Shown: in pieces, positions 952 through 22,328 of the stretch
How the letters are laid out: every line of letters starts with the position of its first letter
How positions within the stretch are numbered: the stretch's first letter is position 1
DNA from: Candidatus Woesearchaeota archaeon
GTDB taxonomy: Archaea; Nanobdellota; Nanobdellia; Woesearchaeales; GW2011-AR9
Assembly (NCBI GenBank): GCA_016179955.1
Contig: JACPCD010000007.1
Coordinates: 5,907 to 69,906 of the forward strand
DNA: 64,000 nucleotides
Direction of reading: 5' to 3'
Notes under the pieces: model-generated
What the model was told of the DNA's origin: nothing
Seen by the model: only the letters and a program-made list of their open reading frames with translations
Databases searched by the model: none
Translations under genes and position numbers: made by a program

Positions 952-1035
952 GGCCGCAGGCGGGAATTGAACCCGCTCCTCTTGCTGTCAGCATAATTCC
1001 ACAGGCAAGAACGCTACCTATACGCTACTGCGGTC
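952..1035 (-). tRNA. tRNA-His (anticodon GUG) with a 12-nt intron in the anticodon loop, encoded G-1 and no encoded CCA
   Basis: The minus-strand cloverleaf was reconstructed by hand. G-1 pairs with discriminator C73. Acceptor is ACCGCAG/CUGCGGC with a single A1·C72 mismatch. D-stem is GCGU/GCGU with two G·U pairs and D-loop AUAGGUA. Anticodon stem is CUUGC/GCAAG and the loop is CUGUGG|A with anticodon GUG. There are 13 nt (AAUUAUGCUGACA) between G37 and stem position 39, so an intron at the canonical 37/38 site. Variable loop is AGGA and the T-arm is GCGGG-UUCAAUU-CCCGC. Confidence 0.8.
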
Positions 1036-4896: not shown

Positions 4897-6433
4897 TCAA
4901 ATCACCAACACCTGCTGTTTCCGAACCACGCGAACTTTCAACGAGGTCGCATGCCCTAAGAACTCTCCACCCGCCTGTAACGGGAAAGGCCTTTTGCTGG
5001 CAAGAATTATCTCTTTTCCCCGCAAAGATAACAACGGCGGCTTGTCGGTATTGGTTAACGCTAACAATAAGCCCCATAACCGTACCGCTTTATTCAGTAG
5101 ATGGGCATGAGTATTAATAACCGCCGTGGCATATACTTTACCATCATCCGGAACCACTCGACCCAGCAGCGAGCGCATCGCAAACCCATAATATGGAATC
5201 TTCCCGAGCGTAAAGTTGACACAGTTCGGGAAATGAAATTTCTTTCCATCGACATAACAATTAAGGTCATATCCATTCTTAGACCATAAGACCGTCCGCA
5301 GGCTGCTAGCAAGATAGCCCAAAAAACCGCGCTGCTGGCCTTTTTGGTAGCGAATCACGTCCGCATCAATGCCCAGAGCTATAAACGTAGTCTGGATTTT
5401 ACGGTGGTTCCATTCTAATTCCAAGACGTCCATCGATGCTTCCTGGAAATGAAAACGCGAACGCAGGTACTCAAACCGTTTGCCTTTATAGAAATAAGAA
5501 TAATATGCGTTCCCCGCCCCTAAGGGAAAAAACCCTAATTTTTTGTTCCAGAAAGGGCGATAATTCAAAGCACTTATATGCGTTCCCCGCCCCTAAGGGA
5601 AAAAACCCTAATTTTTTGTTCCAGAAAGGGCGATAATTCAAAGCACTTTCAAATGAGCCATCGCCACCGGCAATGATGAGATTATCAGTGGGCGCAATAT
5701 TTTTTTCTACACTTCGATACATGTTAGGAGCAGCCGGAAGATAGTGTACTTCTGCTCCCCGCCTCTTGGCAAACAGCCGCAGCAAATGTCTTCGATAGCG
5801 GTCATTATAGGCGCTGGATTGGGGATTAGCAAGAATAACCATCGTTCCCGCCTCTACTTTTTTGCGCTCCTGCCAATGTTTATGCGCACCCTTGCCATAG
5901 TGCAACGCATGATAGAGGATGGAAGCTGCGGCCAAGACTAACACTGCTGCCGTCAACACGAACAGCGCCACTGCCGACATTAAGGCTTGATCAAAAAGAG
6001 ATGAGTACCAAAAAAAGTCCTCCAGCAACAGGCTGAACAAAATAGCGTACTGAAGATAGACCATTGACTTGCGATAGCTCTCTTCAGGAATGAGGATATC
6101 ATCTTGCGACGCCAGCCAGCGGACGATGCCCACACTTACATCTCGAACGATAAAGAAAACAAAAGGAACTTTCCAGAATTTTCCCTGCAGTACGAACAGC
6201 AGCAACAGCCCCATCACTAAGATTTTATCGGCAAAGGGATCGAGGAAAGAGCCAATTCTGGTGGTTTCAGCACGCTTCCGGGCGACGTACCCATCAACGA
6301 TGTCCGTGATAATAGCAACACCTAGCAACACCATGGCCCAGGCAGACGCCGTCGCTGTTTCCTGCAGGATCAGAAGAATAAGCAAGGGCAAAAAAGCAAT
6401 GCGGGTTAAGGTAATGATGTTCGCCAGGTTCAT
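4897..6433 (-). pseudogene. CDP-alcohol phosphatidyltransferase fused to a DAG-kinase-like lipid kinase catalytic domain (GGDGS); the frame is broken by a 73-bp tandem duplication
   Basis: ORF 5486..6433 has the CDP-OH-P-transferase motif DGYVARKRAETTRIGSFLDPFADK followed by GGDGS. ORF 4897..5568 continues the DAGK_cat-like domain. Both ORFs contain the same peptide NYRPFWNKKLGFFPLGAGNAY, which is encoded by the duplicated 73 bp. Confidence 0.6.
5502..5647. repeat. Perfect 73-bp direct tandem duplication (2 copies) inside a coding sequence
   Basis: 5502-5574 is identical to 5575-5647 (atatgcgttccccgcccctaagggaaaaaaccctaattttttgttccagaaagggcgataattcaaagcactt). 73 is not a multiple of 3, so the duplication frameshifts the gene. 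Confidence 0.9.
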
Positions 6434-6468: not shown

Positions 6469-8007
6469 CTACATCATTCCGGCCATTCCCGGGCCATTAG
6501 GTGACATTGGCTGTGAATTATTTTTTCCCCCCATGATCACATCGTCAATGCGCAGAATCATCTCCGCCACTTCCGTGGCGCTGGATAAGGCTTGCGTCTT
6601 GATCTTGAGTGGTTCAATGACTCCCGCACGCTGCGCATCCATGACCTCGCCAGTAAATACATTAATTCCGGCCCAGGTTTGGCCTTGATCGTGCGCTGAC
6701 CTCAGCTGCGTCAGCACCGTAATGGGATCTAACCCGGCATTTTCTGCAAGTGTTCGGGGCACTATTTCCATGGCATCGGCAAAAGCTTGCACTGCTAACT
6801 GTTCTCTTCCGGTTAAAGTTGCTGCAAACCGGCGTATGCCCTGCGCCAGCTCCATCTCAATGGCGCCCGCCCCGGCAACAACTTTGCCATCTTTGAGGGC
6901 AGCGGCCACATCACCCAGGGCATCGGTAACGGCCCGTTTTATTTCTTCTGCCACATGATCCGTTCCGCCGCGCACCAGCAGCGTCATCGCCCTAGGATTA
7001 GGACATTTTTCCACGAAGATCATTTCTTCCTCGCCAATTTTTTCCTCGCGAACTATGCCGGCACTTCCCAAATCAGCGGGAGACAATTCTTTCCAATTGC
7101 TGACGATCGTGGCTCCCGTAGCTCGAGCCAATGATTCCATGTCACTCTTCTTCACCCGGCGCGCCGCTAATACTCCCGCTTTCGCCAGAAAATGCTGCGC
7201 TAAATCATCAATCCCTTTCTGGCAGAAGACAACGGTAGCTCCACTCAGAGTGATTTTATCAACCATCAGCCGTAATGTTCGTTCTTCCTGATCGAGAAAA
7301 GAATTCAATTGGCTGGGATCAGTGATTTGTATTTTGGCATCGATTTCCGTATTCTTTATTTCCAGCGCCGCATCCAGCAAGGCTACTTTCGCCGGCGATA
7401 CTGCTCGTGGCATATGCGGATGAACCCGCTCTTTCTCAAGAACTATACCGGCAATGAGCTCACTGTGCTCGGTGCTTTGCCCTGCCCTTTTCTCAACTTT
7501 AATATTATGAATGTCAATTGTTCCATGTTCAGCTACTCCTTTCACCGCCTTAACCACCAAATCAGCCAAAGTTTCTTTATTCGCTTCCGCGCCCTTGCCG
7601 GTCATGGCAGTAACGGCAATCTGACGTAACATCAGATCATTGCTCAAGGCCATTGGCTGCGCTATTTTCTGCAGCAATCGTTGCGCTTCGACTTCCGCCA
7701 AGCGATAGCCTTTGGCTAAGACCGTTGGATGAATATTTTGATCCAGCAAATCTTCCGCTCTCTTCAATAATTCACCCGCTAAGACTACTGCCGTAGTCGT
7801 TCCATCACCCACTGCCTCCTCCTGCGTTTTAGCGACTTCTACCACCATCTTGGCTGCCGGATGCTCAATCTGCATTTCTTTAAGAATCGTCACGCCGTCA
7901 TTGGTGACGATGACGTCTCCCAGAGAATCCACAATCATCTTGTCCGGCAAGATGAATATTGGCTGAACGGTATCCCCCATGGTATTCTCCCTATCTCCCC
8001 CATTCAT
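6469..8007 (-). CDS. ths: Thermosome subunit (group II chaperonin)
   Basis: 512 aa. Carries GDGTTT, an [14 protein letters not shown]-like region, and the C-terminal GGM-type tail MAGMM. Confidence 0.9.
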
Positions 8008-16503: not shown

Positions 16504-16677
16504 ATGGCAACGTTCAAACATCCGGCAAAAAAGAAACGGCTCATAAAATTTAGCCGACAGACTAAATGGGCCCCTTTCTGGACCGTGTTTAAGATTTATG
16601 GAAAAGGAAGAAGAGTTCATCCTTCCCGACACACCTATGTCAAGCGCTCCTGGCGCCGAGGTTCAACGAAAGCATAA
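16504..16677 (+). CDS. rpl39e: 50S ribosomal protein L39e
   Basis: MATFKHPAKKKRLIKFSRQTKWAPFWTVFKIYGKGRRVHPSRHTYVKRSWRRGSTKA. The start was reassigned to the internal ATG. Confidence 0.8.
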   Translation: MATFKHPAKKKRLIKFSRQTKWAPFWTVFKIYGKGRRVHPSRHTYVKRSWRRGSTKA

Positions 16678-17045
16678 TGGCAACGGCAAAAGAAACATTC
16701 ACTTTAGAACGAACGTATACTGTTCCCCTGCGCAAGGAATCGCAAAAGGCTCCGCGCTGGAAACGGACCCGAAAGACCGTTCGGGCATTACGGGAATTTC
16801 TGCAGAAACATATGAAAGCAGAGCATATCAAGTTGAGCAAGGAAATCAACGAAAAACTGTGGGAACATGGCCTGCGCAATCCCCCGCACCATCTCAAGGT
16901 AACGGTGAAGAAAGATGATAAAGGCGTGGTGCACGCGGAATTGTTTGGCGCCGTAAAGAAAGAAAAGCCGGCACAGAAAAAAGGAAAAGGAACGAAAGAG
17001 GCGAAAGCTCTTCCCCCGTCCGAGCCGCCGCAAGAGAAAGAATAG
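16677..17045 (+). CDS. rpl31e: 50S ribosomal protein L31e
   Basis: ERTYTVPLRKESQKAPRWKRTRKTVRALREFLQKHMK. The start overlaps the L39e stop (TAATG). Confidence 0.85.
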   Translation: MATAKETFTLERTYTVPLRKESQKAPRWKRTRKTVRALREFLQKHMKAEHIKLSKEINEKLWEHGLRNPPHHLKVTVKKDDKGVVHAELFGAVKKEKPAQKKGKGTKEAKALPPSEPPQEKE

Positions 17046-17284
17046 AAGACGTAATTCTCCGTATAACGAAAACCGCCGATTTTTCTCTAAAAGTTTTTAG
17101 ACCGGATTCTGCTCTCTTTTCAGAATGAGCAAAAAATGGCTTTTCGTTCTTAACTTCTCCAAATTTTTAAAACATTTTTTCAGGGATTATAATTCGGCTG
17201 CTAAATGATTATTTTCTGTCCTCAGAAAAAGGGGACAAGATATATAAAGAAAATCAGTTATGCAGTTTCATAATTAAAGGAATT

Positions 17285-18757
17285 ATGAAAACATTTCAAA
17301 ATTTGGAAACAGAAAAAAGCTTTTTTAGAGAAAAATGTTGTATTAGCTACGGTGACCAAAAAGTCTACTTTAATGAAATTATCCTGCCAAATCAGTTTAA
17401 GAAACTGTATTCCAAAGAGCGAATAATGCTCAGATTAAAGAAAGCGATTAACACCGCCAGCAGCCGGCCATCCTTTAACATCCCTTCTTCGTTGTGCCAA
17501 AAAAATGGGATAGAACCAGGTAAGATAGTAATTCTCCGGATAACTAACTCAAAGAAAACCTACGAAATAATAACCAAAGTTGGTGCTTGGAGGAGGATAA
17601 ATGTACCAAGAGAAGTAATCGATAGTCTTAATATTGTCCACGAGCAAAAAGTAATCATCGAGATTATTAAAGAAACAGACCACCGCAATTCAGAAAAGAA
17701 AGATTTAGTTTCATTGCTTGAACATAAAAAGAATATTAAAATGATTAATAGAGAAAACAATTATGTAACGATTTACTCCAGAAGAAAATTTCCCATAACT
17801 TTGCCAAAGAAAGTGTCATTAGAACCTGAACTCATAGAGTGTTTTTTCTTAATCCATGGAGACGGCCATTATAAAGAAAAATTATTCTTCACCAACAAAG
17901 ATATTGGGTTACATGAGTCAGTTATTGATCTATTGCAAAAGTACTTGGGCATCCCGACTTCTATATGGAAAATGAGAATAAATTTACATGAATCTTACAG
18001 AGAGAAAGAAGCTAAAAACTTCTGGTTAAATAATTTGAAATTTGATAAGCGACAATTTTATCCATCCATATCGAGAACAAAATTCAATACTTCTGCTCAA
18101 GGAAATTTGAGAATAGTAATAGATTATCCTATTGTTTCGGAGATTTTTAGAAACATCTTTATTTATATGCAACAAAATCTAAACCGAAAATCTAGCTTTT
18201 ATGCACTGAATGGCCTGTTCGCTGCGGAGGGCGGAGCACAAATAAGTGAAGTTGGACTGCATAGAATAACTTTAAGCTATAATTTTAAAGAGAAAGAAAT
18301 GTTCCAGAAAATATTAAAAAATTGTAATGTTCTTCACTTATTTAAAGATATTGAACAAGGAAATAATCACGGCATTTTTGTGTTGGAAGGCTGGGAAAAA
18401 TTATACCTTTTCTTTAAAGAGTTTGCCATTAAAAAAATTACACCATTTAACTTCCATAACGCTCGAAAACAAAGAGCCATTAATGGGATGATAGAACACT
18501 CTTTTACCAAAACGATGTGCAAATACTTAATGGCATTAAGTCAAAACAAAAAATACACTGTAAAAGAATTTTCAGAAAAACTCCAGATGAGAGAAGATTC
18601 ATGTTTATCTACATTAAGAAAAAAACAATATTCACCATTTATCAACATCAGTGGGCTAGGGATAAATAAGCAACCTTTTTCTATTTCAATAACCAAGCAA
18701 GGTCAAGAATTATTAACCATTATTTCAACTATGCGAGGTGAAAAGATGCATGAATAA
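17285..18757 (+). CDS. LAGLIDADG-type homing-endonuclease-like protein (two degenerate LAGLIDADG motifs) inside an AT-rich insertion
   Basis: 490 aa. Motifs FFLIHGDGHY and LNGLFAAEGGAQ lie about 100 aa apart. GC content is far below the flanking genes. The ORF overlaps the cbf5 start by 20 nt. Confidence 0.5.
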   Translation: MKTFQNLETEKSFFREKCCISYGDQKVYFNEIILPNQFKKLYSKERIMLRLKKAINTASSRPSFNIPSSLCQKNGIEPGKIVILRITNSKKTYEIITKVGAWRRINVPREVIDSLNIVHEQKVIIEIIKETDHRNSEKKDLVSLLEHKKNIKMINRENNYVTIYSRRKFPITLPKKVSLEPELIECFFLIHGDGHYKEKLFFTNKDIGLHESVIDLLQKYLGIPTSIWKMRINLHESYREKEAKNFWLNNLKFDKRQFYPSISRTKFNTSAQGNLRIVIDYPIVSEIFRNIFIYMQQNLNRKSSFYALNGLFAAEGGAQISEVGLHRITLSYNFKEKEMFQKILKNCNVLHLFKDIEQGNNHGIFVLEGWEKLYLFFKEFAIKKITPFNFHNARKQRAINGMIEHSFTKTMCKYLMALSQNKKYTVKEFSEKLQMREDSCLSTLRKKQYSPFINISGLGINKQPFSISITKQGQELLTIISTMRGEKMHE

Positions 18758-19597
18758 GCAAATATTTGTAAAGAGAAAAAGTATTGGAATCTTTGGAAAA
18801 AAGCCAGAAGAAAGGACTCCAGAAGAGCTTATCCATTATGGTATTATCAACATAGACAAGCTAAAAGGCCCAACCTCCCACCAGGTTTCTGACTATGTTC
18901 AAAGGATATTAGGCATTACCAAAGCTGGCCACTCCGGGACCTTAGAGCTATAATCAAGGAAATCCTCAAGTGACTGGTGTTCAGCCTATTGCCTTAGACA
19001 GAGCTACGCGTATCACCCAGTTTCTGTTAGCCGCGCCTAAAGAATATGTTGGTATTATGCATTTACATAAAGCGGTAGAGGAAGAAAAAATAAAAGAAGC
19101 AGTCCACTCTTTTTTAGGTAAAATAATGCAGCTTCCCCCGGTGAAAAGCGCCGTGAAGCGGGTGCAGCGGGAACGAGAGATCTACGAATTTAACCTGCTG
19201 GAAATAAAAGACAAAGACGTGTTGTTCCGGGTACGATGCCAGGCTGGCACGTATATCCGAAAATTAGTCCATGATTTGGGGCAGGCATTAGGAATCGGCG
19301 CGCACATGACCGAACTTCGGCGAACCCAAGCCGGGCCCGGTAGAAAAAGCATTGAAGTATATCCCCAAATGCTGGATTCTTGACTCCACCATTCCCAGCG
19401 TCTCGCATGGGCGAGACGTGGCGATTCCCGGCATCAGCAAATTAGAGAATTTCCGAAAAGGGGAAATTGTGGCGGTAATGACTCTGAAAGAGGAATTGGT
19501 GGCTATCGGTAAGAGTATGATGTCGGCAGTAGAAATTAACACTCAGCAGAAAGGGATTGCGATTGATGTGGAGAAAGTGTTTAACCATACTACTTAA
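18738..19597 (+). CDS. cbf5: tRNA/rRNA pseudouridine synthase Cbf5 (TruB catalytic domain plus PUA); the frame is interrupted twice
   Basis: Three consecutive ORFs (18738-18953, 18970-19383, 19352-19597) are collinear with archaeal Cbf5 (GPTSHQV, KAGHSGTL | DPQVTGVQPIAL, AGTYIRKL, ELRRTQAGP | KCWILDSTIPSVSHGRDVAIPGI, PUA domain). Confidence 0.8.
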
Positions 19598-19630: not shown

Positions 19631-20350
19631 GTGCCCTTTCAAAGCCGTACAGGAGGATTAAAAACTATGACCCAATTACAATTAGACGGACCAACTGTAC
19701 ATACAACGTATTACGGCAAAAACGTAGAACAAATGCCTAAACTTCTTGCCGAGGGCAAAGAACCAATGAGTGTGGCTCATTTAATGGAACAACGACTGGC
19801 AGTACGAGACCAAGGAGTAAGTCCAGTACAGCATGACGCATGGTGGGGTAATTATTTTGACAATGCTGATTTATGGCTGCGACATCCAGACAAAGGCGGA
19901 AAAGTAGTTCCCTACAGCGCCGCAGTGCTTACCTTTCTTCAAGAACATCTTAAACCCGAAACCAAGTTAGTGGATTATGGAGTTCCCTTACCCGATGGAT
20001 TATACGAAGCCATGGACGGATTAGAATTGAAAACAGCTGATATTGGACGATTGCATTCACGAGGATATACCCCTACAGAAGCCAAGAAATCAGTGGTATG
20101 GAGAGAGTTGGCGCGGACACAAAAACGCTTAGATAACTATGTTGATGCTGTTGTTGTGGAAACGGGCAGAGAGCGAGACTTAATGAATACCTACTTTGGT
20201 GAAGCTTCAAAAGTTCCAACCGGGCGGCTTTGGTTTGTCAGCGGCAGGAACAACGATTCCCTTGCGGGTGGCAACTACAATCTTACCCTTGACTATGGTC
20301 GCCTGGTCGGGGTAGCGCCGGAGGCGCACGTCGCGCGCGCAAAAAAATAA
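19631..20350 (+). CDS. DGR target protein; the C-terminus carries the variable repeat
   Basis: 239 aa. The last ~32 codons (20220-20316) match the downstream template repeat, with every mismatch at a template adenine. Confidence 0.75.
   Translation: MPFQSRTGGLKTMTQLQLDGPTVHTTYYGKNVEQMPKLLAEGKEPMSVAHLMEQRLAVRDQGVSPVQHDAWWGNYFDNADLWLRHPDKGGKVVPYSAAVLTFLQEHLKPETKLVDYGVPLPDGLYEAMDGLELKTADIGRLHSRGYTPTEAKKSVVWRELARTQKRLDNYVDAVVVETGRERDLMNTYFGEASKVPTGRLWFVSGRNNDSLAGGNYNLTLDYGRLVGVAPEAHVARAKK
20220..20316 (+). repeat. DGR variable repeat (VR)
   Basis: About 97 nt aligned to TR 20542-20638. The 14 differences all fall at TR adenines (TR AAC/AAT codons versus VR AGC, GGC, CTT, GGT, TAC, TAT). Confidence 0.85.
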
Positions 20351-20541
20351 GAAGTCTACACCACCAATATCTTTTTATATCTCCTTCTTTTTTCTTCGTT
20401 GTCCCAGCATCAGCCATGAAGGCTGTACCATGAGCTGGACTACACGTCTTTCCACCACGGCAGCACGGCTGCTATAAAATACAGCCCCAACTTGATGCAT
20501 AGCACTGAAGGGGCAGTGATATAGTCCGTGGAAGGGCTACT

Positions 20542-20638
20542 CCGGGCGGCTTTGGTATGTCAACAACAGGAACAACGATTCCAATGCGAATGGCAACAAC
20601 AATCTTACCAATGACAATGGTCGCCTGGTCGGAATAGA
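20542..20638 (+). repeat. DGR template repeat (TR)
   Basis: Adenine-rich (many AAC/AAT codons). Non-coding on its own but in frame with and immediately upstream of the RT ORF. Confidence 0.85.
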
Positions 20639-20669
20639 CCTGCTCATTTTTGCTGGGATATTTTCCCCT

Positions 20670-22328
20670 ATGGAAATTTCAACCATTTCTCTTTTTGACC
20701 AGCTATGCCATTATGATAATTTATATCTGGCATATTGGAAAGCACGAAAAGGAAAGACACAGAGAAAATACGTTCTTGACTTTGAAGAAAAATTACAGGA
20801 AAATCTTCTGCGGTTGCAGCAAGAACTTCAGTCTCAAACATATCATCCGAAGCCTTTAGAAACATTCATTCTCCGCGATCCCAAGACCAGGAAAATCAGT
20901 AAGTCTGATTTTCGTGACCGTGTTGTCCATCATGCACTCTGCAATATCATTGAACCGTTGTTTGAAAAAGGCTTTATTTATGATTCCTATGCCAACCGAA
21001 GAGGAAAAGGAACATTGAAAGCAGTACAACGATTTGATGAATTTAAGAAAAATGTTTCTAAAAATAATACCACTATTTGTTTCGTGTTAAAAGCAGACAT
21101 TAAGCATTATTTTGAAACTGTTGATCATGATATTTTATTAAGTATACTGAGTCAGAGAATTCATGATGAGAAGGTATTATGGCTAACCAAGATAATTCTG
21201 TCCAACCATTCCACCACCGCCCCAGGCACAGGAATGCCTCTGGGCAATTTAACATCACAATTTTTTGCCAACATCTATCTTAATGAGTTGGATCAATTTG
21301 TAAAACATACTCTCAAAGCAAGGTATTACATTCGATACGTTGATGACTTTGTGATTCTTCACTCATCCAGCAATCTATTGAAAATGTATGAACAGAAGAT
21401 AGGTTTATTCTTGCGGGAAAAGTTAGCCTTAGAACTTCATCCGCACAAATCAAAAATTGTTAACCTAGAATCAGGCGTTCATTTCTTAGGATTCAGGATA
21501 TTCTATCATTACCGGCTCATTCGAAAGAAAAATATGCATAAGTCTCAACAAAAGTTTCGGCAGCTACAGCAAGAATATCAGGAAGGATTGCTTAATCGGG
21601 AGAAAGTTATCGAATATCTTGAAGGCTGGCTGGCGTTTGCATCACAGGCAAATACCTATAAATATCGAAGATGGTTAATACGGTGGTTTAACCAAGCTTT
21701 TCCATTGGAACAAAAGACACCCCTGGTGGTTTTACAAAAACATCAGAACCTGATGATAAAATCGGAAGAAAGCCAGATACAATTTACCGTTCAGAAAACA
21801 CTTCAATTATTCAGAAAATGTTGGTCTATTTCCCAAATCGCGAGGGCCAGAGACATTACAGAATCTACGGTGTGGGCCCATTTGGCAAATCTGGTCGAAC
21901 ATTATCAAATACCACTGGCTAAGGTAATTCCAAAAGAAAAAATTATTAAAATTCTTCCAAAAATTAGGAATGAAAAAGAAACGTTGAAAGAAATTAAACA
22001 GAAGATTAATGATGCTTCCATAACTTATGAGGAGATAAATTGCGGCCTCGCAAGTATAAAAGCAAAGAAGAAGAAAAGAGGTATTGTCCCCATTGTTTCA
22101 AACTTTCAGCGAACAAATTGTTATCGCAAATGTTATTTTAATCCTCATCAGCGAAAAACATGTGCAAAGAAATTTGAATTATTCTGTTCCCATAATTCGA
22201 CACTGAAAATGAACCCCCAAGAATTTGTGGATTTATTTCAGAATCATATGACCATTTGCGTTCTTCCGGTGAAAGAGAGAAAAAATTACGTTTCGTGGAG
22301 AGAGTTTAGGAAGAATACATGGAAGTAA
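20670..22328 (+). CDS. DGR reverse transcriptase with a C-terminal HTH and cysteine-rich extension
   Basis: 552 aa. RT motifs include YIRYVDDFVI (YxDD) and the DGR-diagnostic PLGNLTSQFFANIY (LGxxxSQ). The C-terminus has ISQIARARDITESTVWAHLANL (sigma-70 region 4/LuxR-like HTH) and five Cys. Confidence 0.9.
   Translation: MEISTISLFDQLCHYDNLYLAYWKARKGKTQRKYVLDFEEKLQENLLRLQQELQSQTYHPKPLETFILRDPKTRKISKSDFRDRVVHHALCNIIEPLFEKGFIYDSYANRRGKGTLKAVQRFDEFKKNVSKNNTTICFVLKADIKHYFETVDHDILLSILSQRIHDEKVLWLTKIILSNHSTTAPGTGMPLGNLTSQFFANIYLNELDQFVKHTLKARYYIRYVDDFVILHSSSNLLKMYEQKIGLFLREKLALELHPHKSKIVNLESGVHFLGFRIFYHYRLIRKKNMHKSQQKFRQLQQEYQEGLLNREKVIEYLEGWLAFASQANTYKYRRWLIRWFNQAFPLEQKTPLVVLQKHQNLMIKSEESQIQFTVQKTLQLFRKCWSISQIARARDITESTVWAHLANLVEHYQIPLAKVIPKEKIIKILPKIRNEKETLKEIKQKINDASITYEEINCGLASIKAKKKKRGIVPIVSNFQRTNCYRKCYFNPHQRKTCAKKFELFCSHNSTLKMNPQEFVDLFQNHMTICVLPVKERKNYVSWREFRKNTWK

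What the first reader, a model, noticed from the sequence alone, without database searches (positions are those of the whole stretch)
17046..18757. AT-rich insertion carrying a free-standing LAGLIDADG-like ORF between rpl31e and cbf5, overlapping the cbf5 start
The rps19e-rpl39e-rpl31e block is about 50% GC. From about 17050 to 18760 the GC content drops sharply. A 490-aa ORF there has two LAGLIDADG-like motifs (FFLIHGDGHY and LNGLFAAEGGAQ) about 100 residues apart, the spacing of single-chain homing endonucleases, plus an N-terminal extension. Its 3' end overlaps the first 20 nt of cbf5, which is itself broken twice. Free-standing LAGLIDADG genes are rare in archaea, where they are usually intron- or intein-borne. 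This looks like a horizontally acquired selfish element that may be linked to the cbf5 lesions.
Basis: partly seen in the sequence, partly recalled or inferred. Interest (0 to 1): 0.55.

Follow-up and report, generated by a model that had tools for sequence, protein, structure and literature searches.

The report
Homing-endonuclease gene paired with cbf5 mini-intron
A Woesearchaeota genome carries an AT-rich gene for a LAGLIDADG-type DNA-cutting enzyme just upstream of the essential cbf5 gene. That gene travels with a 16-base spliceable mini-intron that splits cbf5's catalytic codon, so the pair looks like a two-part selfish element and may explain how such archaeal mRNA introns spread.

Summary
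The region 17046-18757 is AT-rich (GC about 0.31 against about 0.47 in the flanks) and contains a 490-aa ORF with two invariant LAGLIDADG-like motifs.

**The ORF.** The window protein has no significant Pfam hit. A confident AlphaFold model (pLDDT 91) matches LAGLIDADG homing endonucleases. It also has an N-terminal AbrB-like domain and a C-terminal winged helix. Distant family members pass the Pfam LAGLIDADG_3 cut-off.

**The cbf5 breaks.** cbf5 is not decaying.
- Break 1 is a 16-nt bulge-helix-bulge (BHB) mini-intron (18946-18961) in the catalytic Asp codon, the same site as the known crenarchaeal cbf5 intron. It is present in 40 related loci, with compensatory changes in the central helix.
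- Break 2 is a 104-nt deletion that is absent from an independent assembly of the same population.

**Link between ORF and intron.** Counts of loci were 76 with neither, 37 with both, 7 with the ORF only and 3 with the intron only. Both are scattered over the Cbf5 tree and change state together. The ORF, exon 1 and the intron share a history that the flanking genes do not.

**Best reading.** The ORF is a free-standing homing endonuclease that targets intronless cbf5, and the intron provides immunity ("collaborative homing"). Nuclease activity and its target are inferred, not shown.

The parts
16677..17045 (+). rpl31e, the upstream host flank of the element
   Evidence: Pfam Ribosomal_L31e E 3.5e-13. 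In ORF-less relatives its stop codon lies 36-73 nt from the cbf5 start.
17046..17284 (+). AT-rich leader of the cassette. It contains a conserved promoter-like block (about 17196-17270, ...attattttctgtcct..gggacaagatatataaagaaaatca...).
   Evidence: GC is 0.32. The block is nearly identical upstream of the 69%-identical orthologue in L133, although the surrounding sequence has diverged. Promoter function is inferred.
17285..18757 (+). ORF490, a free-standing LAGLIDADG-fold protein and putative homing endonuclease
   Evidence: ORF. 67 homologues, all from DPANN/Woesearchaeota. AF2 model pLDDT 91, pTM 0.87. Foldseek hits to LAGLIDADG endonucleases. dN/dS 0.12-0.22.
17462..17674 (+). N-terminal AbrB/SpoVT-like swapped-hairpin domain (about aa 60-130)
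   Evidence: Foldseek hit to 2glw PhS018 (TM 0.77, normalised to the target). hmmsearch hit to 2glw. Pfam MazE_antitoxin in 3 of 33 members and at 29.4 bits in distant relative P0097.
17816..18439 (+). LAGLIDADG double core (about aa 178-385), two alpha-beta-beta-alpha-beta-beta-alpha halves
   Evidence: Order of secondary-structure elements in the model. Foldseek hits to I-DmoI (TMt 0.5-0.6), E-DreI, I-OnuI, PI-SceI, PI-PfuI, bI3 maturase and WhiA.
17843..17872 (+). LAGLIDADG motif 1, FFLIHGDGHY (D193)
   Evidence: Invariant LIHGDG in 33 aligned homologues and in all full-length copies in about 50 loci.
18206..18241 (+). LAGLIDADG motif 2, LNGLFAAEGGAQ (E315)
   Evidence: Invariant LNGL..AEG. 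hhalign places it on I-DmoI FIKGLYVAEGD (E117), but that alignment is not significant.
18458..18754 (+). C-terminal MarR-like winged helix-turn-helix domain
   Evidence: hmmsearch against PDB: 3nrv MarR/EmrR E 2.4e-4. Foldseek MarR/MexR hits.
18750..18945 (+). cbf5 exon 1 (Met1 to the first base of the catalytic Asp codon). It overlaps the ORF490 stop by 8 nt (ATGAATAA).
   Evidence: Pfam DKCLD E 1.8e-10. Relatives align from this ATG. In-silico splicing gives ...KAGHSGTLDPQVTGVQPIAL....
18936..18966 (+). BHB/BHL motif: GGGA CCUU [AG|A] gcuauaauc AAGG [AA|A] UCCU
   Evidence: The MFE fold equals this structure. 28 distinct homologous junctions show 97.8% pairing; the central helix is 100% paired, with compensatory double changes at 2 of its 4 pairs.
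18946..18961 (+). 16-nt mini-intron in cbf5, between the 1st and 2nd base of the catalytic Asp codon, with an in-frame UAA
   Evidence: Cutting after the 2nd nucleotide of each 3-nt bulge restores GAU-CCU = Asp-Pro. Homologous introns of 13-35 nt occur at the same site in 40 loci. It is the same site as the crenarchaeal cbf5 intron (PMC2738675).
18962..19597 (+). cbf5 exon 2 (TruB_N, TruB_C_2, PUA), carrying a frameshifting deletion in this assembly
   Evidence: Pfam TruB_N E 1.2e-18 and PUA E 4.5e-17.
19336..19337 (+). Junction of a 104-nt deletion between short GCCGG repeats (the second 'break'). It removes about 35 codons (PFTE...CIQP) and shifts the frame.
   Evidence: Alignment with five relatives. 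Independent Logan assembly L131, 5053/5055 nt identical, reads through with PFTEADNLVTLNDLQDAVYFYQHENN.

Best explanation
The region is a two-part selfish cassette in a Woesearchaeota (DPANN) genome.

Part 1 is an AT-rich gene with its own promoter, lying between rpl31e and cbf5. It encodes a single-chain LAGLIDADG enzyme with two extra DNA-binding domains (AbrB-like and winged helix).

Part 2 lies 190 nt downstream. It is a 16-nt bulge-helix-bulge mini-intron that splits the catalytic Asp codon of cbf5. The cell's tRNA-splicing endonuclease and ligase remove it from the mRNA, so Cbf5 is still made.

Proposed mechanism (inferred). The enzyme cuts cbf5 alleles that lack the intron, at or near the Asp-codon site. 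Repair from a cassette-bearing copy then copies the ORF, exon 1 and the intron into the cut allele. The intron interrupts the recognition sequence and so protects the carrier. This is 'collaborative homing', known from phages.

Shown: the fold and the conserved catalytic-position residues; the intron structure, its covariation and the restored reading frame; the co-distribution and joint gain or loss of ORF and intron; and the distinct history of the ORF-exon 1 segment.

Inferred: DNA cleavage, the identity of the target, immunity through the intron, and actual splicing.
For: **LAGLIDADG fold.**
- The AF2 model has pLDDT 91.
- Foldseek hits are dominated by LAGLIDADG endonucleases, including I-DmoI, which comes from an archaeal BHB intron.
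- D193 and E315 are invariant and no copy has a stop codon.
- Distant relatives pass the Pfam LAGLIDADG_3 cut-off.

**Intron.**
- 40 loci carry a 13-35 nt insert at exactly G|AU of the Asp codon.
- Pairing is 97.8% against 56% or less in slid controls, and the central helix has compensatory double changes.
- Splicing restores GTLDPxVTG.
- It is the same site and cleavage rule as the RT-PCR-verified crenarchaeal cbf5 intron.
- A tRNA with a short intron lies in the same window.

**Linkage.**
- Locus counts: 76 with neither, 37 with both, 7 ORF only, 3 intron only.
- Fitch parsimony on the Cbf5 tree: ORF 11 changes, intron 14, combined 16, against 25 or more when shuffled.

**Mobility.**
- The distribution is patchy, and the window's sister L018 and L086's sister L007 lack both parts.
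- Only 1 of 80 species representatives carries the ORF.
- The ORF has lower GC than cbf5 in 38 of 39 loci.
- The ORF keeps its position but is inverted in three lineages.
- L127 retains only a truncated ORF remnant.
- The ORF and exon 1 of window, L001 and L133 are mutual best matches (76-79% nt). Beyond the intron site (68%), and in rps19e and rpl31e (63-66%), they are not. The excess similarity ends at the intron site.

**Possible resistance alleles.** ORF-positive, intronless alleles have unusual residues right after Asp (DNK, DPL, DPM, DPT[VI]VS). The 76 ORF-less alleles have DP[AQGNKHR]V.
Against: - No cleavage assay exists, and the target is unknown.
- The window protein misses every LAGLIDADG HMM, and hhalign against I-DmoI is not significant.
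- Seven ORF-positive loci have an intronless cbf5, yet their ORF is still under purifying selection (L109-L110 dN/dS 0.20). The protein is therefore maintained without the intron.
- ORF divergence roughly tracks host divergence (66% to L001, 40-43% to L002 and L003), which also fits long vertical residence.
- The extra AbrB-like and winged-helix domains resemble a transcription-factor architecture such as WhiA.
- About 14 of 67 homologues are fused in frame to the Cbf5 N-terminus, which could hint at a Cbf5-related function.
- The co-conversion signal rests on three genomes and short segments, and part of it reflects BHB pairing constraints.
- The metagenome loci were fetched using the ORF as query, so ORF-positive loci are over-sampled.
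Confidence: 0.55

Rival explanations
1. Domesticated LAGLIDADG-derived DNA-binding regulator, similar to bacterial WhiA. Under this reading the protein no longer cuts DNA. It uses its LAGLIDADG scaffold, AbrB-like domain and winged helix to regulate cbf5 or the ribosomal-protein cluster, and its association with the intron is only a historical leftover.
For: - WhiA (3hyi) is among the Foldseek hits.
- A MarR-like wHTH and an AbrB-like domain are present.
- Purifying selection (dN/dS 0.12-0.22) holds even where cbf5 has no intron.
- The upstream block is conserved, which is compatible with autoregulation.
- Some copies are fused in frame with Cbf5.
Against: - WhiA-type proteins have lost the catalytic acidic residues. 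Here D193 and E315 are invariant in every copy.
- A host regulator would not be expected to be missing from most close relatives (76 ORF-less loci).
- It would not be expected to be consistently AT-shifted.
- It would not be expected to be gained or lost together with an intron about 9 times.
- It would not be expected to work equally well in either orientation.
Confidence: 0.15
2. Splicing helper (maturase-like). The protein binds the cbf5 pre-mRNA and helps the splicing endonuclease recognise the minimal, relaxed BHB, in the way LAGLIDADG maturases assist group I introns.
For: - The ORF and the intron co-occur tightly.
- The bI3 LAGLIDADG maturase is among the structural hits.
- The window's motif is relaxed, with an inner helix of only 1-2 bp.
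Against: - The three intron-bearing loci without a detectable neighbouring ORF (L039, L053, L080), together with the crenarchaeal cbf5 introns, which are cut by the splicing endonuclease alone (PMC2738675), suggest the intron does not need the ORF.
- Seven loci keep the ORF without the intron, under selection.
- Several ORF-linked introns are canonical BHBs that need no help (L001, L002).
- The extra domains are DNA-binding types.
Confidence: 0.1
3. Ancient, purely vertical feature. The ORF and intron were present in an early Woesearchaeota ancestor and have been lost many times, with no ongoing mobility. The ORF would then be a fossil endonuclease kept for some unknown reason.
For: - ORF identity falls with host distance.
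- One large Cbf5 clade is entirely ORF-positive.
- There are no homologues in viral contigs.
Against: - Repeated precise joint loss of a 1.6-kb gene and a 13-35 nt intron 190 nt away is unlikely without recombination against an empty allele.
- The ORF-exon 1 segment has a different history from both flanks in window, L001 and L133.
- The GC offset persists in hosts whose GC ranges from 0.26 to 0.50.
Confidence: 0.15
4. cbf5 is a decaying pseudogene damaged by the inserted element, which is how the first reader read the 'lesions'.
For: In the window sequence, cbf5 reads as three ORF fragments.
Against: - Break 1 is a conserved structured intron that restores the catalytic motif in 40 loci.
- Break 2 is absent from an independent assembly of the same population.
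- The rest of the cbf5 sequence is intact and well conserved.
Confidence: 0.03

Closest known systems
Crenarchaeal cbf5 pre-mRNA BHB intron (Watanabe 2002; Yokobori 2009, PMC2738675)
   Same: The host gene and insertion point are the same (between the 1st and 2nd base of the catalytic Asp codon). Sizes are similar (16-44 bp there, 13-35 nt here). The BHB is often relaxed, and cleavage falls after the 2nd bulge nucleotide in both.
   Different: The phylum differs (DPANN Woesearchaeota, not Desulfurococcales/Sulfolobales), and the distribution here is patchy. Here the intron is physically and evolutionarily linked to a neighbouring LAGLIDADG ORF. The crenarchaeal intron was noted to be too short to encode a nuclease, and no partner was known.
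Collaborative homing: cyanophage F-CphI with the psbA group I intron (Zeng, Bonocora & Shub 2009, as described in PMC6083498), and T4 mobE with the I-TevIII intron (PMC2790892)
   Same: A free-standing endonuclease gene sits next to a conserved gene whose ORF-less intron lies at the presumed target. The intron would protect the carrier, and the nuclease would mobilise both parts.
   Different: Those systems are in phages, use group I introns and use Endo VII-like or HNH nucleases, and cleavage was shown experimentally. Here the host is a cellular archaeon, the intron is a protein-spliced BHB intron, the enzyme is LAGLIDADG-type, and cleavage is only inferred.
I-DmoI and other LAGLIDADG endonucleases encoded in archaeal rRNA BHB introns
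   Same: Single-chain double-motif LAGLIDADG fold. The catalytic pair is D...E (I-DmoI GLIIGDGG / GLYVAEGD; here FLIHGDGH / GLFAAEGG). Both are associated with BHB introns.
   Different: The ORF is not inside the intron. The protein is about 300 aa larger, with AbrB-like and wHTH domains. Sequence similarity is below HMM and HHalign significance.
WhiA (LAGLIDADG scaffold plus HTH transcription factor)
   Same: LAGLIDADG double domain followed by a C-terminal helix-turn-helix domain.
   Different: WhiA lacks the catalytic acidic residues (from my own knowledge) and is a conserved bacterial core gene. ORF490 keeps both residues and is sporadic and AT-shifted.

Membership tests
LAGLIDADG homing endonucleases (single-chain) | Two LAGLIDADG helices, each ending in an acidic residue (D/E) that forms the active site | tested here: met
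   LIHGDG (D193) and GL.AAEG (E315) sit at the C-terminal ends of helices 181-193 and 301-315. They are invariant in 33 aligned homologues and in all full-length copies.
LAGLIDADG homing endonucleases (single-chain) | Tandem alpha-beta-beta-alpha-beta-beta-alpha fold | tested here: met
LAGLIDADG homing endonucleases (single-chain) | Significant match to the Pfam LAGLIDADG_1/2/3 profiles | tested here: inconclusive
   The window protein has no hit. Four of 33 homologues hit weakly (E 0.011). Distant family members found with the profile (E 1e-33 to 1e-16) pass the LAGLIDADG_3 cut-off (35.9, 32.5, 25.8 and 28 bits against 22.5). hhalign against I-DmoI is not significant.
LAGLIDADG homing endonucleases (single-chain) | Site-specific double-strand DNA cleavage with 4-nt 3' overhangs | not testable with these tools
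   Needs purified protein and target DNA.
LAGLIDADG homing endonucleases (single-chain) | Selfish, sporadic distribution at a fixed genomic site | tested here: met
   The ORF is always next to cbf5 and is absent from 76 related loci. It needs 11 state changes on the Cbf5 tree. It is AT-shifted, and a degenerate remnant exists in L127.
Archaeal bulge-helix-bulge (BHB) introns | Two 3-nt bulges on opposite strands separated by a 4-bp helix | tested here: met
   GGGA-CNNU-[AGN]...NNNG-[NNA]-UCCN occurs in all 40 introns. The central helix is 100% paired, with compensatory changes. The inner helix is canonical in L001, L002 and L080, and minimal (relaxed BHL) in the window.
Archaeal bulge-helix-bulge (BHB) introns | Cleavage after the 2nd nucleotide of each bulge yields a functional product | tested here: met
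   In-silico splicing restores GAU (Asp) and the motif GTLDPxVTG in the window and in every homologue.
Archaeal bulge-helix-bulge (BHB) introns | Removal by the splicing endonuclease and ligation in vivo | not testable with these tools
   No transcript data were available. A tRNA with a short anticodon-loop intron in the same window shows the genome uses this pathway.
Collaborative homing (free-standing nuclease plus ORF-less intron) | Nuclease gene adjacent to the intron-bearing target gene, with the two inherited together | tested here: met
   The ORF end lies 190 nt from the intron. The 2x2 counts are 76/37/7/3. The combined parsimony score is 16, against 25 or more when shuffled. ORF and exon 1 share a history.
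Collaborative homing (free-standing nuclease plus ORF-less intron) | The nuclease cuts the intronless allele at the intron insertion site, and the intron blocks cutting | not testable with these tools
   This is inference only. Unusual residues next to Asp in ORF-positive intronless alleles are suggestive.
WhiA-like LAGLIDADG-derived regulators | Loss of the catalytic acidic residues of the LAGLIDADG motifs | tested here: not met
   D193 and E315 are invariant.
Inteins with a LAGLIDADG domain | In-frame insertion in a host protein, flanked by Hint splicing blocks | tested here: not met
   The ORF lies upstream of the cbf5 start and in another frame. No Hint domain was found in Pfam. A true cbf5 intein exists elsewhere (L089) and looks quite different.

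The most novel reading that the evidence does not exclude
This would be the first case of collaborative homing in Archaea. [quoted passage not shown] The same mechanism, or an ancestor of this cassette, could explain why cbf5 mRNA introns sit at exactly the same nucleotide of the catalytic Asp codon in Crenarchaeota and in DPANN. It would supply the mobility agent that Yokobori et al. (2009) said was still to be found.
Probability: 0.45. Interest if true: 0.85.

Novelty: new variant of a known kind. Interest (0 to 1): 0.72.

Why it matters
Introns in archaeal protein-coding genes are very rare. The classic case is the cbf5 intron of Crenarchaeota, whose origin and means of spread are unexplained because the intron is too short to encode a nuclease.

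This window shows the same intron, at the same nucleotide, in a distant phylum. There it is gained and lost together with a neighbouring LAGLIDADG gene. That makes the old question directly testable with one protein and two DNA substrates.

It would also extend 'collaborative homing' from phages with group I introns to cellular archaea with protein-spliced BHB introns, and it adds a new domain architecture (AbrB-like, LAGLIDADG, wHTH) to the meganuclease repertoire.

There is a practical point for annotation as well. cbf5 is annotated as split or fused fragments in these MAGs, and the ORF is labelled 'hypothetical'. Recognising the mini-intron corrects the annotation of an essential gene.

Tried and rejected
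**Searches that gave nothing decisive**
- Direct family searches of ORF490 (Pfam, NCBIfam, PHROGs) gave no meaningful hit. The MoaA and GH79 hits are far below their cut-offs.
- An hmmsearch of the family profile against PDB found only the wHTH and the AbrB-like domain, not LAGLIDADG.
- hhalign against I-DmoI (sequence verified as 1b24_A) was not significant.
- The viral contig scan found no homologue.
- Rfam has no family covering the intron region.

**Readings of break 1 considered and dropped**
- Programmed frameshifting or gene-60-like translational bypass. The inserts are 13-35 nt, some are multiples of 3, and all carry an in-frame stop. The codon at the Asp position would be AAU, UAU or CAU in different genomes. 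No matching take-off and landing codons exist. Only splicing at G|AU restores the invariant Asp.
- A truly split two-polypeptide Cbf5. This would leave no catalytic Asp.
- My first attempt placed the bulges with the wrong BHB topology and seemed to contradict the reading frame. With the correct topology (central helix 5' of each bulge) the cleavage sites fit exactly.

**Reading of break 2 as a second intron: rejected.** Sequence is missing rather than added, and an independent assembly has the missing sequence.

**Literature.** Searches for cbf5 with DPANN, and for Woesearchaeota with intron or LAGLIDADG, found no prior description.
Full report
**Observation.** The window has a 490-aa ORF at 17285..18757 (+) between rpl31e (16677-17045) and cbf5 (Pfam assignments).
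- GC falls to 0.30-0.34 across 17100-18900, against 0.44-0.57 in the ribosomal-protein genes and 0.45-0.51 in cbf5.
- cbf5 reads as three pieces: DKCLD, TruB_N plus TruB_C_2, and PUA.
The only correction is that cbf5 most likely starts at ATG 18750, as in relatives, which gives an 8-nt ATGAATAA overlap rather than 20 nt.

**What the ORF is.** The window protein matches no LAGLIDADG profile in Pfam, NCBIfam or PHROGs.
- It has 67 homologues at 38-69% identity, all from Woesearchaeota/Nanoarchaeota MAGs.
- In an alignment of 33 of them, LIHGDG.Y (D193) and ALNGL..AEG (E315) are invariant.
- An AlphaFold model built on that alignment is confident (pLDDT 91, pTM 0.87). It shows two alpha-beta-beta-alpha-beta-beta-alpha halves, each beginning with a helix that ends in one of those motifs.
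- Foldseek against the PDB returns LAGLIDADG enzymes almost exclusively: TliVMA/PI-SceI, PI-PfuI, E-DreI, I-OnuI, I-DmoI (TM 0.5-0.6 normalised to I-DmoI), the bI3 maturase and WhiA. It also returns PhS018 (AbrB-like, TM 0.77) for residues about 60-130 and MarR-type winged helices for the C-terminus (wHTH also by hmmsearch).
- A profile search of 1.84 billion representatives finds only 169 relatives. Distant ones pass the Pfam LAGLIDADG_3 gathering score, and one passes MazE/AbrB.
- hhalign against I-DmoI is not significant, although it places E315 on E117.
- My conclusion is that ORF490 is a divergent single-chain LAGLIDADG protein with an AbrB-like N-terminal domain and a C-terminal wHTH. 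It keeps the D...E catalytic pair seen in I-DmoI.
- Every one of about 50 copies is free of stop codons, with the motifs intact. dN/dS is 0.12-0.22.

**The first cbf5 break is a mini-intron.** About 14 homologues are annotated as fusions to the Cbf5 DKCLD domain and end about 65 residues into Cbf5. This pointed to a conserved interruption.
- Fetching loci showed a short insert exactly between the first and second base of the catalytic Asp codon in 40 loci. It is 13-35 nt long, and 16 nt in the window at 18946-18961.
- All inserts fit one structure: GGGA-CNNU-[AG|N]-variable-NNNG-[NN|A]-UCCN. That is an outer 4-bp helix, a central 4-bp helix and two 3-nt bulges. In longer introns there is also an inner hairpin, giving canonical BHBs in L001, L002 and L080.
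- Cutting after the second nucleotide of each bulge restores ...GTL-D-PxVTG... in every case (for the window).
- On 28 distinct junctions, 97.8% of cells pair, against 56% or less when partners are slid.
- The central helix is 100% paired. Two of its four pairs show compensatory double changes, in which synonymous Thr and Leu codon changes are matched by intron changes.
- The window's MFE fold reproduces the structure. Its z-score alone is unremarkable, but the L001 and L080 versions have z of about -3.6 to -3.9.
- This site and cleavage rule are exactly those of the crenarchaeal cbf5 pre-mRNA intron, which is 16-44 bp long. Its splicing was first shown in Aeropyrum and Sulfolobus species, and partial cDNA sequences from five further species are cited as consistent (PMC2738675).
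- A tRNA in the same window carries a short anticodon-loop intron, so the genome uses this splicing pathway.

**The second break is not biological decay.** Compared with five relatives, the window lacks 104 nt between short GCCGG repeats at 19336/19337. This removes about 35 codons and shifts the frame. An independent Logan assembly from SRR12113431, identical at 5053 of 5055 overlapping bases, reads straight through this point and encodes PFTEADNLVTLNDLQDAVYFYQHENN. The deletion is therefore an assembly artefact or a minor variant, and it is unrelated to the ORF.

**The ORF and the intron belong together.**
- Among all loci with a readable junction, 76 have neither, 37 have both, 7 have the ORF only and 3 have the intron only.
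- The metagenome loci were retrieved using the ORF as query, so ORF-positive loci are over-sampled. In the unbiased set of 80 species representatives retrieved with Cbf5, 1 has the ORF and 4 have the intron.
- On a Cbf5 NJ tree the ORF-plus-intron state is scattered. The window's nearest neighbour L018 and L086's nearest neighbour L007 lack both parts.
- Fitch parsimony needs 11 changes for the ORF, 14 for the intron, and only 16 for the combined character. Shuffling gives 25 or more. About nine gains or losses therefore coincide.
- ORF-less relatives have rpl31e followed by cbf5 after 36-73 nt.
- The ORF always sits between these genes, but it is inverted in three lineages.
- Its GC is below that of cbf5 in 38 of 39 loci. 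It stays at 0.21-0.37 while host GC ranges from 0.26 to 0.50.
- L127 keeps only a 281-aa remnant of the ORF, with the intron retained.

**Signal of cassette transfer.**
- In the window's own clade, the ORF and the 195-nt exon 1 of window, L001 and L133 are mutual best matches (76-79% nt).
- The first 360 nt after the intron (68%), rps19e (63%) and rpl31e (66%) are no closer to each other than to ORF-less genomes.
- In 64-66-nt bins the excess similarity ends at the intron site. The bin just 5' of it is 0.78-0.89, the bin just 3' is 0.68-0.71, and background is about 0.70.
- This is what gene conversion starting at a break near the intron site would leave. It rests on only three genomes, and part of it reflects BHB pairing constraints.

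**Mechanism.** I think the most likely explanation is collaborative homing, as defined for the cyanophage F-CphI/psbA intron pair (PMC6083498) and related to T4 mobE/I-TevIII (PMC2790892).
- ORF490 would cut intronless cbf5 at or near the Asp codon.
- Repair from a cassette-bearing copy would then copy the ORF, exon 1 and the intron.
- The intron would split the recognition site and protect the carrier.
- The cell would splice the intron out of the mRNA, so the insertion costs little.
- The seven ORF-positive intronless alleles have residues immediately after Asp (DNK, DPL, DPM, DPTVVS, DPTIVS) that are never seen in the 76 ORF-less alleles, which have DP[AQGNKHR]V. These would fit resistance mutations, but the sample is small and phylogenetically clustered.
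- Cleavage, target identity, immunity and splicing are all inferred.

**Rivals.**
- *WhiA-like domesticated regulator.* This is favoured by the extra DNA-binding domains, by purifying selection even without the intron, and by the in-frame fusions. It is disfavoured by the retained catalytic residues, the sporadic distribution, the GC offset, and the joint gain and loss with the intron.
- *Maturase-like splicing helper.* The intron-only loci, the ORF-only loci, the canonical BHBs and the ORF-independent crenarchaeal introns argue against it.
- *Pure vertical inheritance with repeated joint loss.* Precise loss of both parts nine times is hard to achieve without recombination, and the discordant history of the cassette argues against it.
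- *cbf5 is a pseudogene.* This is contradicted by the evidence above.

**Novelty.** The individual parts are known kinds: the LAGLIDADG fold, the BHB intron, the cbf5 Asp-codon site, and collaborative homing. I found no description of four things:
- this protein family, which NCBI annotates as hypothetical;
- a cbf5 intron in DPANN;
- a free-standing LAGLIDADG gene paired with a BHB mini-intron;
- collaborative homing in Archaea.

Yokobori et al. wrote that testing the idea that cbf5 introns derive from ORF-bearing mobile introns would require further sampling of cbf5 genes to find an intron that includes a protein-coding sequence. This cassette is a concrete candidate. I rate it a new variant of a known kind, with interest 0.72.

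Noticed in passing
window 20410-22328 (+): Rfam RT-16 RNA (56.3 bits, gathering score 50) lies at 20410-20545, directly upstream of a 552-aa reverse transcriptase ORF at 20670-22328. The ORF has RVT_1 plus HTH_40 and is group-II-like, but scores below the NCBIfam cut-off. The region is AT-rich (0.34-0.39). It appears to be a second, separate foreign element about 1 kb downstream of cbf5.
   Followed up: partly
window 952-1034 (-): A tRNA gene (Rfam 47.7 bits) has a 15-nt stretch in the anticodon loop where the tRNA model has 3 positions, and ARAGORN misread it as a 4-nt anticodon. It is probably a short BHB tRNA intron in the same genome.
   Followed up: partly
L089 5185-7425 (Ga0209541_10004432): In this relative, cbf5 carries the mini-intron and also a LAGLIDADG-type intein of about 525 aa inserted after GTYIRKLC. 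Together with the upstream ORF490 homologue, that makes three selfish elements in or next to one gene.
   Followed up: partly
L001 about 6597-6616: cbf5 has a second, fully canonical 20-nt BHB mini-intron after the GPT codons: GGG-UCCG-[AC|A]-GAAGU-GCU-ACUUC-CGGA-[AU|U]-UCC. Splicing restores GPT|SHQV. The window lacks it. The truncated fusion proteins P0005 and P0006 suggest the same intron is present in their genomes.
   Followed up: partly
L135 4001-5380; L136 736-2079: Distant paralogues of ORF490 (P0097 and P0095, LAGLIDADG_3; P0097 also has a MazE/AbrB hit) are free-standing at other loci, one next to a YchF-like GTPase and one next to a LigT-like gene. I did not check whether their neighbours carry mini-introns.
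   Followed up: no
window 19631-20350 (+): A 239-aa ORF directly after cbf5 has no hit in Pfam, NCBIfam or PHROGs. Relatives such as L001 have a different gene at this position.
   Followed up: no
window 18946-18953 and homologous introns: Every window and homologous cbf5 mini-intron at this site examined carries an in-frame stop (UAA in most, UGA in four, UAG in two) within the first few intron codons, most often as ...AG|AGUAA. Unspliced mRNA would therefore yield only a peptide of about 67 aa.
   Followed up: no
L039, L053, L080: These three species representatives carry the Asp-codon intron (15, 26 and 25 nt; L080 has a perfect 7-bp inner hairpin) but have no ORF490 upstream. They may be cassettes that lost the nuclease gene.
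   Followed up: partly
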